Source of the DNA: a virus
Lineage: Duplodnaviria; Caudoviricetes
IMG/VR virus record: IMGVR_UViG_3300047321_000298
Span: 64,001 to 128,000 of that record
DNA: 64,000 bases
Strand: one strand, 5' to 3'
Shown one piece after another: positions 22,667 to 60,683 of the stretch. Position numbers and translations under genes: made by a program. Numbering within the stretch: position 1 is the stretch's first letter; each line of letters begins with the position of its first letter. Below the pieces are notes generated by a model. It was not told where the DNA came from. It saw only the letters and a program-made list of their open reading frames with translations, and made no database searches.

Positions 22667-22810
22667 GCTATTTTCTTTCTTCTGGACACTTCATAGTCAA
22701 ATGTGCAGGAGAAAGAGCGAATGCAGAAATCGTAGCTGAATCTGCATCCGCACTTCGGACGTTAATCCCAATCACATAGAGCAAGTCATCAAGGCTAGTT
22801 ACGATAACAA

Positions 22811-22919
22811 GAAAAGCCGACCCTCTACCGCTGAGGTACTCACCTCCCAAGATCACTTCAGCCGACAAATGATCTAGGGCAGGTGAGACGGGATTCGAAC
22901 CCGCGTCTTTCGACTTGAA
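22811..22919 (-). ncRNA. permuted tRNA-like domain B (YrlA/Y RNA-like topology)
   Basis: GTCGA-AAGAC-GCGGG TTCGAAT CCCGT-CTCACCT [hairpin] AGGTGAG-TA-CCTC AGCGGTA GAGG-G-TCGGC. Confidence 0.7.
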
Positions 22920-23022
22920 CCAGTGCTCTCATCCATTGGGTGCACTGGCAACCTTCCGCCTGCTTTAAACTGCGATTGCTTAATACAATGAGATTTGGGT
23001 AATACGATCAATGAAAGTTGCC

Positions 23023-23243
23023 GCTCGCTGCCGCACGTCTACCAATTCCGTCACCTCTGCACCAAACACGCTGCCATACTCAAAACCGGGTTATCGGGAA
23101 CCGGCTCTGATTAGAGCAGACGACCCAAACTTTTCCCAAGAAAAGATCGCTACCGTGGGAATCCACCCCCGTCGAGAAAGGTGGCACGACTACATACAGC
23201 AGTGTGTTTGGTGCAGAGGGGTGGAGTCGAACCACCACTGAGC
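23023..23243 (-). ncRNA. permuted tRNA-like domain A (Leu-type D loop, encoded ACCA)
   Basis: GGTGG TTCGACT CCACC-CCTCTGC-ACCA upstream of GCAGAGG-TG-ACG GAATTGGTAGA CGT; 20-bp inverted repeat 23054-23073/23200-23219. Confidence 0.65.
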
Positions 23244-23289
23244 TTCTACTATCAACGATAACTATAACGATTTCCCATTTATCTCAACT

Positions 23290-23937
23290 CTATAATTCAA
23301 TACTTTTTGAAGCGTACCGTCGTTTAGCCGCGAGTGACATATTAAGCCGCGCCTGTTCGCTGTGAACTCTTCCTCGGTTCCCCTTCCCGGTCATGCCGCG
23401 TCGTTGACCTTCCGACATGTTCATGCGGGACTGTTCAGTGTGGACACGCCCAAGGTTCAGCCTGCCTCCCATGCTAGGAGCCTTACGGCCCGCCGCCATG
23501 TTTCTCTTAGACTGTTCCGTGTGTTTATATCCACGTTCACGATGCTGCCAAGCCTCAGCCATTTTCCGTCGCGCTTCTGCGTCGTGCATATCGCCGCTGC
23601 GTCCCTCACCGCCGTCTGTCATATTCGCTAAACACCCGGTGCCGTTGTTGCGCCGACCGTAGAAAGCTATCGTGTTGATTTCACAGCCAAACGCCTGTTT
23701 CTCCGTTAGCTCCGTGGCCTCATACTCAATGTGAATTCGCTTACCTTCGCGAATCGCCTTGCGTATGATGTGGTTCTTGTAACTTGGTTTGGCTAACAAC
23801 TCAGGCTTCAAATGATTTCTAGCACGATTTGCCTTTCCTTTTCCGACGTAGAAGGGTAGCTCTTCATCATCCACTCTGAATTTATAAACGTAATATATTC
23901 GGTGTCTATCAAAGGGCTTCCCGTTCTTTCTCGGCAT
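23290..23937 (-). CDS. free-standing GIY-YIG homing endonuclease with NUMOD3 repeats
   Basis: YYVY...FYVGKG..NRA..H, NMTDGGEG, four H[ST]E..R.[NK]M repeats; AT-richer than flanks. Confidence 0.85.
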   Translation of the reverse strand: MPRKNGKPFDRHRIYYVYKFRVDDEELPFYVGKGKANRARNHLKPELLAKPSYKNHIIRKAIREGKRIHIEYEATELTEKQAFGCEINTIAFYGRRNNGTGCLANMTDGGEGRSGDMHDAEARRKMAEAWQHRERGYKHTEQSKRNMAAGRKAPSMGGRLNLGRVHTEQSRMNMSEGQRRGMTGKGNRGRVHSEQARLNMSLAAKRRYASKSIEL

Positions 23938-24208: not shown

Positions 24209-25003
24209 TTAAACCTGGTTGCTGGCTGGCGGATTACGCAGCGGCTCAAGGATCACTGCAATCAGGTCGCGGCCGATGTTCTGCGTCATCACAGGCACCG
24301 AGTTCGCGCGGGTCCGAGCCTGCTTAACAGCCGTGATCAGTTCGTCCAGAGTCGCGATAACCTGCGCCTTCTGGATTGCGGTCGTCGCGCCCGACACGTT
24401 TTCCTGCGTGAACGTGCCGATGATCTTGTCGCTGGTCACTTCCTTGACCTGTGCCGGGTGCTTGTCCGAGTGCGGGTACAGGACCACGGGCACAGTCTGC
24501 TTTTCGGTCTTGGTCGTGATCGACGGATGTGCTGCCTTCCACGTACCGGCTTGTGCCGCGTTGGGGTCGATGCGCCAATCCTTCGATGCGTCCAGCGTCG
24601 GGATTTGCATCGCGAGCTTGCGCAGTTCGCCCAGACGCACTTCCAGACCCATCAACTCATCGACCGGCACATTCTCTGCGAATGTTTGTCCACGGAATTC
24701 GATGTTGGCGAGAGCGGTCGTGTTGGTCAGGTTCTTCGACGCCAGAACGTCTTCGGCCTTCGCCCAGTAGCTCAGGAAGTAGTCCAGAGTCGTGAGCACC
24801 GTTGTCGGCAGCGTCTTATCCTGGCGCGCGGCCTTTTCGAGGTCTTCGTTGTTCGGATCGTCACCGAGCAGCTTCAGGGTCTTCGTGAAGCCCGTGAAGT
24901 AGTTGTCACCCTTTTCAAATTTCGTCAGGGTGTCCTTAGCCATCGCGTCGCGCGAATTTGTTGCCGTCTTTTCAGCGGCCAACAGTTCATGAAGTTGAGC
25001 CAT
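24209..25003 (-). CDS. hypothetical phage protein
   Basis: start at MAQLHELL (25003); AGTAAATA promoter motif at 25045. Confidence 0.75.
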   Translation of the reverse strand: MAQLHELLAAEKTATNSRDAMAKDTLTKFEKGDNYFTGFTKTLKLLGDDPNNEDLEKAARQDKTLPTTVLTTLDYFLSYWAKAEDVLASKNLTNTTALANIEFRGQTFAENVPVDELMGLEVRLGELRKLAMQIPTLDASKDWRIDPNAAQAGTWKAAHPSITTKTEKQTVPVVLYPHSDKHPAQVKEVTSDKIIGTFTQENVSGATTAIQKAQVIATLDELITAVKQARTRANSVPVMTQNIGRDLIAVILEPLRNPPASNQV

Positions 25004-25044
25004 GTGTGTTTGTATGAGCAAGAGTTATGGGGCCTTACACTTCT

Positions 25045-25843: not shown

Positions 25844-25879
25844 AAAAGCCCCGTCAAATCTCACTTTGACGGGGCTTTT
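25844..25879. terminator. bidirectional intrinsic terminator
   Basis: perfect 15-bp inverted repeat AAAAGCCCCGTCAAA/TTTGACGGGGCTTTT at a convergent junction. Confidence 0.85.
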
Positions 25880-25883
25880 GTTT

Positions 25884-25961
25884 TGGCAGGGGGTACAGGA
25901 TTCGAACCTGTGCATGCTGGGATCAAAACCCAGTGCCTTAACCGGACTTGGCGAACCCCCA
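25884..25961 (-). tRNA. trnQ: tRNA-Gln(UUG)
   Basis: full cloverleaf, CTGGG TT TTG AT CCCAG, CCA encoded; U1.U72 mismatch. Confidence 0.9.
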
Positions 25962-25976
25962 ACTGAAACAAACTAC

Positions 25977-26107
25977 TGGTCGGAACAGCAGGAATCGAAC
26001 GCTGCGTCATCCTCTCCCTACCGGGCTTCAAGACACATGCGGTGTGCTGAGTGCATGCTGAATTGTGGGTCCCGGCGAGGATTACTCTACCTTTGAGCTA
26101 TGCTCCG
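25977..26107 (-). ncRNA. tRNA-Pro-like RNA with a 55-nt insertion in the anticodon loop
   Basis: CGGAGCA/TGTTCCG-A-CCA, normal D arm, TTCGATT T loop; CCGGG...CCCGG insert at 26021-26075. Confidence 0.7.
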
Positions 26108-33394: not shown

Positions 33395-33829
33395 CTACCT
33401 GTCGTAGTATTGTTCTAGCGTCAGCCCGAAATATTTGCTATCTGATTCGAACCGCGAACCAACGATCACGTAGCTACCGCAAGTTTCGTCCACCGTATCA
33501 GACGAGTCGTCAAGAATCGCATCGGTCTGGAACGCGCGTAGCTTTTCAACGAACGCGCGCCAGTAGGTTTCGTGCGGATAGCCGTCGCTCGAACGCAATA
33601 TCTCGTCGCTGAGGTTGAGCACGCGGTTGCCATCGTTATCAGTATCGAGAACAAGAGACCATTTATTCAGGAACACGATTTCTTTGCGGGTATGACTCAC
33701 CGCGTAGTAGAGAACACCCATGAATTTCTCCGGTTGAGTCGGGAGAGTGCAGGAATCGAACGCTGCATCTTTTGCCCAGGCGTAGGCAACTGTAAAGGCC
33801 ACTCCACTACCTCTCCCCAAGTCAGGCAA
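33395..33829 (-). CDS. hypothetical protein
   Basis: ORF; true start probably internal (MGVLYY). Confidence 0.55.
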   Translation of the reverse strand: MPDLGRGSGVAFTVAYAWAKDAAFDSCTLPTQPEKFMGVLYYAVSHTRKEIVFLNKWSLVLDTDNDGNRVLNLSDEILRSSDGYPHETYWRAFVEKLRAFQTDAILDDSSDTVDETCGSYVIVGSRFESDSKYFGLTLEQYYDR

Positions 33830-60530: not shown

Positions 60531-60683
60531 GGAGCGGTGGCGAAATTGGTAGACGCAGGCGGCTAAGGTTGTCCCCGCAAGGGGTTGGGAAACGGGACGC
60601 CAAAACCCGGAACTGGAAAACCTGAAACTGCCGGTAGGGATAGGCTGTCCCGCTTGAGGGTTCGACTCCCTCCCGCTCCGCCA
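60531..60683 (+). ncRNA. class II tRNA (Ser/Leu-like) with a 58-nt insertion in the anticodon loop
   Basis: GGAGCGG/CCGCTCC-G-CCA; D arm GCG AAATTGGTAGA CGC; GGCGG/CTGCC stem; insert AGGTT...AACCT 60566-60623; long variable arm; GAGGG TTCGACT CCCTC. Confidence 0.75.

What the first reader, a model, noticed from the sequence alone, without database searches (positions are those of the whole stretch)
25977..26107. tRNA-Pro body with a 55-nt insert whose removal restores a Pro anticodon
Seen: C1-G72 and A73-CCA (ProRS identity). The insert CCGGG...CCCGG (26075-26021) sits after position 32. Deleting it leaves stem TCCTC/GAGGA and the loop G-U-AGG-G-A: exactly 7 nt, with U33, G37 and a Pro anticodon. 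Caveats: G32, A34, one extra base before the stem and a T-stem bulge are atypical. Known: bacterial tRNA introns are group I or II and much longer. Inference: a novel small intron-like element, or a chargeable non-decoding decoy.
Basis: partly seen in the sequence, partly recalled or inferred. Interest (0 to 1): 0.8.

Follow-up and report, generated by a model that had tools for sequence, protein, structure and literature searches.

The report
Phage tRNA-Pro look-alike with hairpin insert
A giant soil phage carries a real, conserved gene for an RNA built like a proline tRNA, with its anticodon loop split by a conserved 56-base hairpin; it is either a tRNA mimic that does not decode or a tRNA with a kind of intron not yet described in bacteria or their viruses.

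Summary
On the minus strand at 26107..25977 lies a 131-nt tRNA-shaped gene. It has the acceptor stem C1-G72, A73 and an encoded CCA, canonical D and T loops, and a T stem with one bulged base. A hairpin sits between positions 32 and 33. ARAGORN and Rfam do not call it as it stands. With the hairpin deleted, ARAGORN calls tRNA-Pro(AGG).

It is not a decayed gene. I found it in five phage lineages, always beside GroES and tRNA-Gln. Neutral sites in GroES differ by 35-44%, yet the tRNA body and the hairpin centre differ by only 3-17% within the window's clade. Five base pairs show compensating changes, one of them in the hairpin's top helix.

The anticodon-like bulge reads UUGGA in the two outgroup lineages, which is the Pro UGG anticodon. 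In the window's clade it drifts at about the neutral rate: UAGGGA, UAGGA, UUGCA.

The phage encodes RtcB ligase, but I found no splicing endonuclease, BHB motif or ribozyme match. No RNA data exist.

My best reading (about 45%) is an unspliced, non-decoding tRNA-scaffolded hairpin RNA. A new kind of intron (about 25%) stays open. This scan has noted similar tRNA look-alikes in other phages before.

The parts
25977..26107 (-). Whole 131-nt tRNA-shaped gene (called c1 here)
   Evidence: Sequence read. Covariance model R1 scores it 149.5 bits. Homologs lie at L003:164-295, L006:3995-4125, L015:1927-2056, L040:9556-9683 (= L027:780-907) and L029:1-126.
26101..26107 (-). Acceptor stem, 5' strand CGGAGCA (C1)
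   Evidence: Pairs with 25981-25987. Pair 7-66 changes A-U to G-C in L029. Pair 5-68 is always G.U or A.A.
26084..26098 (-). D arm GCTC-AAAGGTA-GAGT with G18 and G19
   Evidence: Pair 10-25 is seen as G.U, G-C and A-U.
26077..26082 (-). Anticodon stem, 5' strand ATCCTC (6 bp with 26009-26014)
   Evidence: The first pair covaries as A-U, U-A and G-C.
26021..26076 (-).
   Evidence: Unique in the 245-kb genome. Present in all five lineages. Its deletion gives ARAGORN tRNA calls.
26031..26062 (-). Conserved centre of the insert: top helix GCAUGC/GCAUGU (26053-26058 with 26035-26040) and a 12-nt loop at 26041-26052
   Evidence: Differs by 3-12% within the window's clade against 35-42% at neutral sites. 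One helix pair changes U-A to C-G in L027 and L029. The loop ends in ACC in all lineages.
26015..26020 (-).
   Evidence: Homologs read UUGGA (L027/L040, L029), UAGGA (L015) and UUGCA (L006).
26009..26014 (-). Anticodon stem, 3' strand GAGGAT
25988..26005 (-). T arm GCAG(C)G-TTCGATT-CCTGC with one bulged base
   Evidence: The bulge (C or U) is kept in all lineages. Pair 49-65 changes G-C to U.G in L027. The same 21-nt T arm recurs at window 33749-33769.
25977..25987 (-). Acceptor stem 3' strand TGTTCCG (G72), A73 and encoded CCA
   Evidence: ACCA is invariant in all homologs.
26197..26484 (-). GroES-like gene directly upstream (context)
   Evidence: PF00166 (Cpn10) homologs. A GroES gene lies within about 420 nt of the element in the window, L003, L006, L015 and L027/L040; the L029 contig starts inside the element, so its upstream side is not seen.
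25884..25961 (-). tRNA-Gln(UUG), 15 nt downstream (context)
   Evidence: ARAGORN and Rfam. tRNA-Gln lies 15-35 nt downstream of the element in the window, L003, L006, L015 and L029. In L027/L040 the GroES gene lies between the two.
25844..25879 (-). Intrinsic terminator closing the GroES - element - tRNA-Gln unit (context)
   Evidence: Stem of 15 pairs followed by a T run.

Best explanation
The element is a selected RNA gene that descends from a tRNA-Pro gene. Its anticodon loop is split between positions 32 and 33 by a conserved hairpin of about 56 nt.

Inferred life cycle: it is transcribed with GroES and tRNA-Gln and released by the ordinary tRNA-trimming enzymes (RNase P at C1, 3' trimming back to the encoded CCA). 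It then persists as a stable 131-nt L-shaped RNA whose anticodon arm continues into a long irregular hairpin.

In this reading the hairpin is not removed and the RNA does not read codons. The tRNA body serves for processing, stability and recognition by tRNA-binding proteins. The conserved hairpin top, a 6-bp helix with a 10-12-nt loop ending in ACC, is the working part and binds an unidentified protein or nucleic acid. The design is the natural counterpart of the engineered 'tRNA scaffold' used to express foreign RNAs in bacteria.

Shown: the fold, its conservation and covariation, the gene context, and the drift of the anticodon bulge. Inferred: transcription, processing, absence of splicing, and the partner.
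For: 1. The gene is real and under selection. Fourfold-degenerate sites of the neighbouring GroES gene differ by 35-42% within the window's clade and by 44% to L040. Within the clade the tRNA body differs by 11-14%, the junction helix by 0-9% and the insert centre by 3-12%.
2. The fold is kept. In my manual alignment 156 of 161 cells in 33 pairs form standard pairs, with changes on both sides at pairs 7-66, 10-25, 27-43, 49-65 and one top-helix pair. The tool count gives 92.8% paired against 38-49% for slid controls, and 1 of 500 shuffles reaches the observed covariation score.
3. The insert is at least as conserved as the body, which suits a functional domain.
4. The anticodon-like bulge is not held fixed in the window's clade. 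It reads UAGGGA, UAGGA or UUGCA: three substitutions and one indel in 5-6 sites, about the neutral expectation. L006 would carry an Ala anticodon on a Pro-type acceptor that lacks G3.U70. The window's loop is one base longer than all the others.
5. Departures from a working tRNA are conserved in all lineages: the bulged T stem, the non-Watson-Crick 5-68 pair, and A rather than G at position 37 in four of five lineages.
6. The same phage has other tRNA-shaped genes that cannot decode, for example at 27626..27510, 27097..26938 and 33817..33737.
7. The phage already has a canonical tRNA-Pro(UGG) at 30329-30405.
8. No ribozyme or intron family matches and no splicing endonuclease is found.
9. A 1-nt indel in the loop of the near-identical relative rules out a conserved overlapping ORF.
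Against: The two outgroup lineages, L027/L040 and L029, differ from each other by 26% in the body and 34% in the insert centre, yet share an identical bulge UUGGA. This is the U33-U34-G35-G36-A37 of a tRNA-Pro(UGG) loop. Four of five lineages keep NGG. The bulge is therefore constrained in part of the family, as expected if it is read by ProRS or the ribosome.

Deleting exactly the hairpin leaves a 7-nt loop in four lineages.

A second insert-bearing gene of the same genome (60531-60683) also leaves a conserved 7-nt remnant, CUA+GAAA, when its hairpin is removed.

The phage encodes RtcB, the ligase of archaeal and animal tRNA splicing.

No partner for the hairpin is known. The whole family has only five lineages, two of which were found with a pattern that forced 18 bases to match.
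Confidence: 0.45

Rival explanations
1. A tRNA-Pro gene with a new kind of small intron. A protein endonuclease, not yet identified, cuts at both feet of the hairpin (after C32 and before U33), leaving 2',3'-cyclic phosphate and 5'-OH ends. The phage RtcB joins the exons. The product is a decoding tRNA-Pro, with anticodon AGG in this phage and UGG in outgroup phages. The conserved hairpin would be the recognition element for the cutting enzyme.
For: ARAGORN calls tRNA-Pro after the hairpin is deleted in the window and L015. By the same alignment, L027/L040 and L029 would be left with the loop C-UUGGA-G, anticodon UGG. U33, G35 and A37 are invariant and G36 is kept in four of five lineages. The acceptor identity set C1-G72/A73 and the CCA are invariant. 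The phage has RtcB at G000:143003-144133, 407.6 bits. Lak megaphage tRNAs have unexplained conserved introns (PMC6784885). A second gene in the window (60531-60683) behaves alike.
Against: There is no bulge-helix-bulge motif: the 5' strand has no unpaired base at the junction. The phage has no tRNA-intron endonuclease domain. No ribozyme or group I match appears at E<=10. ARAGORN's intron mode does not call it. L006 would give UGC on a Pro-type acceptor. The window's loop is one base longer than the others, and a change of anticodon-loop length is known to disturb reading-frame maintenance. Four of five lineages have A37 where tRNA-Pro normally has G37 (general knowledge). The bulged T stem and the 5-68 mismatch are conserved. 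The phage already has tRNA-Pro(UGG). RtcB is common in jumbo phages as a tRNA repair enzyme (PMC7824862), so its presence is weak evidence.
Confidence: 0.25
2. An unspliced RNA that proline-specific factors still recognise. The bulge shows G35 and G36, and the acceptor end shows G72 and A73, so ProRS charges or at least binds it. Alternatively a host nuclease aimed at tRNA-Pro is soaked up by it. The RNA never enters the ribosome.
For: The identity elements known for E. coli ProRS (A73, G72, G35, G36; general knowledge) are kept in four of five lineages, while position 34, which is not an identity element, varies between U and A. The CCA end and tRNA elbow are intact. The hairpin leaves the 3' half of the loop single-stranded as a 4-6-nt bulge.
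Against: L006 has lost G36 and has an A4.A69 mismatch, yet keeps the hairpin centre 97% identical to the window's. The bulge drifts at about the neutral rate in the window's clade. Nothing shows that ProRS tolerates a helix leaving the loop at 32/33. This reading does not explain why the hairpin top is conserved.
Confidence: 0.15
3. A dead tRNA-Pro gene hit by an insertion, drifting without function.
For: Standard tRNA finders do not call it. Its MFE is not exceptional against shuffled sequences, z = -1.3. Its features are atypical: the T-stem bulge, G.U or A.A at 5-68, and A34.
Against: It differs by only 3-17% where neutral sites differ by 35-44%, across five lineages. Compensatory changes occur in five pairs. 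The insert is unique in the genome and is not a repeat or mobile element. CCA and position beside tRNA-Gln and GroES are kept.
Confidence: 0.04

Closest known systems
'Enigmatic' conserved introns in tRNA genes of Lak megaphages (Devoto et al. 2019, PMC6784885)
   Same: Both are tRNA genes of a very large phage interrupted in the anticodon region by a short sequence. The sequence is highly conserved between genomes and matches no known intron class, and no splicing mechanism is known.
   Different: The Lak cases were called by tRNAscan in eukaryote mode, and one insert itself looks like a tRNA. Here the insert is a plain hairpin at 32/33, ARAGORN's intron mode misses it, and the anticodon is not fixed among homologs. 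I did not compare the sequences.
Engineered tRNA scaffold for recombinant RNA (Ponchon and Dardel; PMC3753655, PMC3401473)
   Same: Same architecture: an intact acceptor, D and T arms, with the anticodon stem prolonged into a foreign hairpin. That design is processed and stabilised in bacteria like a tRNA.
   Different: That is a laboratory construct whose anticodon loop is fully replaced. Here the element is natural, and the 3' half of the anticodon loop survives as a bulge.
Group I introns in bacterial and phage tRNA anticodon loops (e.g. tRNA-Leu(UAA))
   Same: An insertion inside the anticodon loop of a bacterial-type tRNA gene.
   Different: Group I introns are about 200 nt or more with a P1-P9 catalytic core. 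This insert is 56 nt and has no Rfam Intron_gpI match.
Archaeal and eukaryal protein-spliced tRNA introns (BHB motif, EndA endonuclease, RtcB ligase)
   Same: Short structured introns, sometimes at non-canonical positions such as 32/33. RtcB is the ligase, and the phage has an RtcB.
   Different: There is no bulge-helix-bulge motif at the junctions and no EndA-family domain in the phage. Bacterial hosts are not known to have one.
T4 RNA C and RNA D, small stable RNAs of the T4 tRNA cluster (PMC3014915)
   Same: Small non-tRNA RNAs encoded inside a phage tRNA cluster, with unknown function.
   Different: No sequence relation was tested. The T4 RNAs are not described as tRNA-Pro derivatives with a hairpin in the anticodon loop.
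tRNA-like modules of tmRNA and of YrlA-type Y RNAs (Rfam RF02553)
   Same: A tRNA elbow and acceptor are used as a handle on a larger non-decoding RNA. A YrlA-like module lies 3 kb away in the same cluster.
   Different: tmRNA has alanine identity and a tag reading frame, and ARAGORN finds none here. YrlA is circularly permuted with a closed acceptor. This element has an open CCA end and a full D arm.

Membership tests
Canonical decoding tRNA (Rfam RF00005) | Cloverleaf with a 5-bp anticodon stem and a closed 7-nt anticodon loop, scoring above the model threshold | tested here: not met
   No RF00005 match at 25977-26107, even at E<=10. ARAGORN gives no call. It is called only after the hairpin is deleted in silico.
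Canonical decoding tRNA (Rfam RF00005) | Acceptor stem, D arm with G18 G19, T loop TTCRANY, and a CCA end | tested here: met
   except for a conserved 1-nt bulge in the T stem and a non-Watson-Crick 5-68 pair.
tRNA-Pro | C1-G72 and A73 with anticodon NGG (G35, G36), conserved among orthologs | tested here: inconclusive
   C1-G72 and A73 are invariant wherever the 5' end is present (the L029 contig lacks positions 1-4). NGG is kept in four of five lineages and is UGC in L006. Position 37 is A in four lineages. The best-scoring ordinary tRNAs under model R1 are mostly tRNA-Pro genes.
Group I intron | Catalytic core P3-P9 of about 200 nt or more, matching Rfam Intron_gpI | tested here: not met
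   The insert is 56 nt and nothing matches at E<=10.
BHB (archaeal-type) tRNA intron | Two 3-nt bulges separated by a 4-bp helix at the exon-intron junctions | tested here: not met
   The 5' strand runs from the anticodon stem into the insert helix with no unpaired base. There is a single 4-6-nt bulge, on the 3' strand.
BHB (archaeal-type) tRNA intron | A splicing endonuclease of the EndA family is available | tested here: not met
   PF01974 is absent from the complete 245.5-kb phage genome, while the control genomes rang. The host is unknown.
BHB (archaeal-type) tRNA intron | An RtcB-type ligase is available | tested here: met
   PF01139 matches at 407.6 bits at G000:143003-144133.
tmRNA | G3.U70 alanine identity, a tag reading frame and pseudoknots | tested here: not met
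   The pair is G3-C70. ARAGORN tmRNA mode finds nothing. No tmRNA family matches at this site.
Lak-type 'enigmatic' phage tRNA introns | A phage tRNA gene that becomes a normal tRNA when a short conserved insert is removed, with the same insert conserved across genomes | tested here: inconclusive
   Removal gives a tRNA call in every lineage, but the anticodon and loop length differ between lineages. Whether removal happens in RNA could not be tested.
Mobile or repeated insertion (MITE/REP-like) | Further copies elsewhere in the genome or in other contexts | tested here: not met
   There is one copy in the genome. The hairpin motif was not found in other contexts in viral contigs.

The most novel reading that the evidence does not exclude
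The hairpin is a true intron of a class unknown in bacteria and their viruses. A protein endonuclease of phage or host recognises the conserved hairpin and cuts at positions 32/33. The phage RtcB reseals the tRNA. Phage-infected bacteria would then carry out enzyme-dependent tRNA splicing without a BHB motif or an EndA enzyme.
Probability: 0.2. Interest if true: 0.9.

Novelty: new variant of a known kind. Interest (0 to 1): 0.6.

Why it matters
Bacteria and their viruses are thought to have only self-splicing introns in tRNA genes, and phage tRNA clusters are usually read as simple codon-supply kits. This element shows selection keeping a tRNA body whose anticodon loop is permanently occupied by a conserved hairpin.

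If the hairpin stays in, phages build dedicated non-decoding RNAs on tRNA frames, with tRNA processing and stability for free. The partner of the hairpin would then point to a new phage-host interaction, possibly around tRNA-targeting defences or aminoacyl-tRNA synthetases.

If the hairpin is cut out, this is enzyme-dependent tRNA splicing in the bacterial world, and it gives the common phage RtcB a job beyond repair.

The element is small, self-contained and sits in a defined operon, so either answer can be reached with a plasmid clone and a Northern blot.

Tried and rejected
- RNA evidence: no RNA holder was listed for the window stretch or for L040:9540-9700. Splicing and expression could not be examined.
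- DNA contigs of three other rhizosphere runs laid on 25860-26260 carry the L003-type variant with the insert. No contig skips it.
- Exact-pattern scans that found no further members: a 22-mer and a 25-mer of the body in viral contigs; the T-arm/acceptor pattern in metagenome contigs; the hairpin-centre patterns in viral contigs (one chance hit in a coding region); and the junction pattern in genome contigs (14 chance hits in coding DNA).
- The looser T-arm/acceptor pattern in viral contigs gave ordinary or otherwise odd tRNA-Pro genes of unrelated phages, not this family.
- The 'spliced' 76-nt form has no blastn match among 50,697 phage records.
- The cultured relative Burkholderia phage BcepSauron has the GroES/tRNA-Gln region but no homolog of the element.
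- GroES relatives at 67-76% identity (L008, L009, L017, L019, L021) have a different structured element at the site before tRNA-Gln. P0010 and P0011 turned out to be bacterial groES-groEL loci.
- Target search: the complement of the 12-nt loop has only one 11-nt match elsewhere in the genome, within chance. The hairpin centre is not a repeated motif such as a promoter.
- The Rnl1 family search (PF09511) rang in no control genome, so it is uninformative. PF09414 (RNA ligase), TROVE/Ro60 and the CCA-adding enzyme family were not found.
- MAFFT and the covariance-model alignment both misplace the 1-nt gap of the bulge. The tool count for the anticodon stem (72% paired) therefore understates it, and I relied on a manual alignment.
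- The 10-nt identity CCGGTAGGGA between this element and the gene at 60531-60683 falls in different structural places. I treat it as unexplained, not as homology.

Full report
**Setting.** The window is bases 64001-128000 of a complete 245,517-bp virus record with direct terminal repeats, a jumbo phage from a rhizosphere metagenome. It encodes a DNA polymerase, a Dda-like helicase, topoisomerase II and methyltransferases. By protein similarity it is a distant relative of Burkholderia phages BcepSaruman and BcepSauron. On the minus strand between 31155 and 25884 lies a cluster of ten ordinary tRNA genes interspersed with small ORFs. All ten encode their CCA end.

**The observation.** Read on the minus strand, 26107..25977 has these features:
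- a 7-bp acceptor stem, CGGAGCA/TGTTCCG, with C1-G72 and G5.U68;
- A73 and CCA;
- U8 and A14;
- a D arm with G18 and G19;
- a canonical T loop, TTCGATT, on a 5-bp T stem with one bulged C;
- a 6-bp anticodon stem, ATCCTC/GAGGAT.

The 5' strand of that stem runs straight into a hairpin, GCCGGG...CCCGG. The 3' strand returns through a six-base bulge, UAGGGA.

ARAGORN, with or without its intron mode, does not call the element. Nor does the Rfam tRNA model, even at E<=10.

The minimum free energy of the whole RNA is not exceptional against shuffled sequences (z = -1.3). The centroid fold shows the acceptor stem, the D arm and the long anticodon-arm hairpin.

The insert is unique in the genome. 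No ribozyme or intron family matches.

**Relatives.** Direct pattern scans first found only a near-identical phage, L003, whose copy has a 1-nt insertion in the hairpin loop. That indel also excludes a conserved overlapping reading frame.

Working from the GroES gene just upstream, I collected graded homologs and their contigs. Two Logan contigs with GroES 85-87% identical carry the element directly before tRNA-Gln: L006:3995-4125 and L015:1927-2056.

A junction pattern then found two more distant lineages in peat and soil metagenomes:
- L027/L040, where the order is element, GroES, tRNA-Gln and GroES is only 53% identical;
- L029, cut at its 5' end, with tRNA-Gln 35 nt downstream.

That pattern forced GGTAGAG and TCCTCGCCGGG to match, so conservation of those 18 bases in the two new lineages is not evidence.

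Phages with GroES at 67-76% identity, and BcepSauron, lack the element.

A covariance model built from the six sequences scores family members at 122-150 bits. After a gap of about 75 bits come ordinary tRNAs. The best-scoring of these are mostly tRNA-Pro genes, including the window's own tRNA-Pro(UGG) at 37.4 bits. The body is therefore tRNA-Pro-derived.

**Selection.** Fourfold-degenerate sites of GroES differ by 35-42% among the window, L006 and L015, and by 44% between the window and L040. Against that background, divergence within the clade is as follows:

| Part of the element | Divergence within the window's clade |
|---|---|
| tRNA body | 11-14% |
| Junction helix | 0-9% |
| 32-nt centre of the hairpin | 3-12% |
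| Hairpin flanks | 21-85% |
| Anticodon-like bulge | 33-50% |

In a manual five-lineage alignment, 156 of 161 cells in 33 pairs are standard pairs. Changes on both sides occur at:
- pair 7-66 (A-U to G-C);
- pair 10-25;
- pair 27-43 (A-U, U-A, G-C);
- pair 49-65 (G-C to U.G);
- one pair of the hairpin's top helix (U-A to C-G in two lineages).

The tool count on the model alignment gives 92.8% paired against 38-49% for slid partners. One of 500 shuffles reaches the observed covariation score. That alignment misplaces one gap and so understates the anticodon stem.

The decayed-pseudogene reading is thus excluded for practical purposes. The hairpin is a selected part of the RNA.

**The anticodon question.** Across lineages the bulge reads UUGGA (L027/L040 and L029), UAGGA (L015), UAGGGA (window and L003) and UUGCA (L006).

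The two outgroup lineages are well diverged from each other, by 26% in the body and 34% in the hairpin centre, yet share UUGGA. With C32 and G38 this is a regular tRNA-Pro(UGG) loop once the hairpin is taken out. U33, G35 and A37 never change.

Systematic in-silico deletions give ARAGORN tRNA-Pro(AGG) for the window and L015 but tRNA-Ala(UGC) for L006. The L006 acceptor is Pro-type, lacks G3.U70, and has an A4.A69 mismatch.

Whatever register is used, the window's loop is one base longer than all the others. Within the window's clade the bulge has taken three substitutions and one indel in 5-6 sites. This is what the neutral divergence predicts, while the hairpin centre next to it stayed 88-97% identical.

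I read this as follows. The family began as a tRNA-Pro(UGG) with a hairpin in its loop. The Pro-like bulge is still held in some lineages. In the window's clade, selection acts on the body and the hairpin and no longer on the anticodon.

**Can it be an intron?** The phage encodes a full-length RtcB (407.6 bits). RtcB joins 2',3'-cyclic phosphate and 5'-OH ends and is the tRNA splicing ligase of archaea and animals. It is also a common repair enzyme of jumbo phages (PMC7824862).

Several things are missing:
- I found no EndA-type endonuclease.
- There is no bulge-helix-bulge motif, because the 5' strand has no unpaired base at the junction.
- No self-cleaving or group I motif matches.
- No ATP-dependent RNA ligase of family PF09414 was found. 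The Rnl1 search was uninformative.

Lak megaphage tRNAs have conserved introns of unknown mechanism (PMC6784885), so a precedent exists for unexplained inserts.

A second gene in the window (60531-60683, plus strand) has a type-II tRNA body with a 58-nt structured hairpin in the anticodon loop. It leaves the 7-nt remnant CUA+GAAA. Its homolog in L085 keeps the remnant and the anticodon stem, while one inner hairpin covaries completely. This parallel keeps the intron reading alive.

**Why I lean to a non-decoding RNA.** Six points favour it:
- The hairpin top is conserved like a functional domain.
- The anticodon drifts in the very clade that holds the window.
- Loop length is not fixed.
- The bulged T stem, the non-Watson-Crick 5-68 pair and A37 are conserved departures from a working tRNA-Pro.
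- The phage already has a normal tRNA-Pro(UGG).
- The same cluster holds tRNA-shaped genes that plainly cannot decode (27626..27510, 27097..26938, 33817..33737, and the YrlA-like modules at 22796-23264).

The architecture equals the engineered tRNA scaffold, in which a foreign hairpin replaces the anticodon loop and the chimera is trimmed and stabilised like a tRNA (PMC3753655).

The transcription unit is inferred. The element lies about 90 nt after the GroES stop codon and 15 nt before tRNA-Gln, which is followed by a strong intrinsic terminator.

**What remains open.** No RNA data could be found, and no cultured phage with the element was found either. The choice between mimic (about 45%), intron (about 25%) and Pro-specific decoy (about 15%) therefore rests on comparative evidence from five lineages.

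Earlier notes of this scan describe similar extended-anticodon-arm tRNA look-alikes, and tRNA genes with short inserts, in other phages. I used them as leads only. I found no published description of this family.

Noticed in passing
window 60531-60683 (+): A second insert-bearing tRNA-like gene. It has a type-II body, G73 and CCA, the anticodon stem GGCGG/CUGCC, and a 58-nt structured hairpin in the loop that leaves CUA+GAAA (anticodon AGA if removed). The homolog at L085:6099-6258 keeps the remnant and stem, has A73, and one inner hairpin covaries fully.
   Followed up: partly
window 26938-27097 (-): A 160-nt type-II tRNA-like gene with a domain of about 66 nt in place of the anticodon loop, ending in CGA instead of CCA. 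The homolog at L008:2627-2802 has an 85-nt domain and ends in CCA. ARAGORN's intron mode gives inconsistent anticodons for the two.
   Followed up: partly
window 27510-27626 (-): A tRNA-like element with T arm UGAGG-UUCGAGU-CCUCC and an anticodon arm capped by a UUCG tetraloop (CGGAC-UUCG-GUCCG). It cannot decode. An earlier first-stage note of this scan also flags it.
   Followed up: no
window 33737-33817 (-): Another uncalled tRNA-like gene that shares the same 21-nt bulged T arm (GCAGCG-TTCGATT-CCTGC) with the studied element. It has an odd anticodon arm and no CCA. Model R1 scores it 21.3 bits, and it is conserved in L003:7929-8009.
   Followed up: partly
window 22796-23293 (-): Permuted tRNA-like modules. 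A T arm plus CCUCUGC-ACCA at 23250..23209 precedes its complementary Leu-like 5' half at about 23060. A sub-threshold YrlA match (30.1 bits) lies at 22818-22912. The DUF7873 gene at 24209-25021 is upstream. Other reports of this scan cover these.
   Followed up: partly
window 23290-23937 (-): A homing-endonuclease-like ORF (phrog_314) lies directly upstream of the orphan tRNA 3' half that ARAGORN calls 'tRNA-Asp(auc)'.
   Followed up: no
G000:C1:143003-144133 (+), outside the window (L024): A full-length RtcB RNA ligase gene. Its neighbours have no Pfam match.
   Followed up: partly
L008:3746-3869, L014:331-454, L019:431-558 and relatives: A different insert-bearing tRNA-like family sits just before tRNA-Asn in related phages. 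Its insert holds a T-arm-like hairpin and a second hairpin, both with full covariation between L008 and L014. It ends in ACCU, with no CCA.
   Followed up: partly
L006:3747-3828, L008:4680-4757, L015:1810-1888: tRNA-Met-like genes with an enlarged 9-nt anticodon loop (AAUCAUGGA or AACCAUGCA) in related phages.
   Followed up: no
window 26120-26188 (-): A long-range 10-bp helix (UGAGCGUGCG with CGCACGCUCA) lies between the GroES stop and the element. A similar helix follows GroES in L006 and L008, where a tRNA-Glu comes next.
   Followed up: no
L055:357-515 (-): An unrelated phage contig holds a 159-nt tRNA-Pro-like gene with an intact UGG anticodon loop and a large insert elsewhere in the body.
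   Followed up: no
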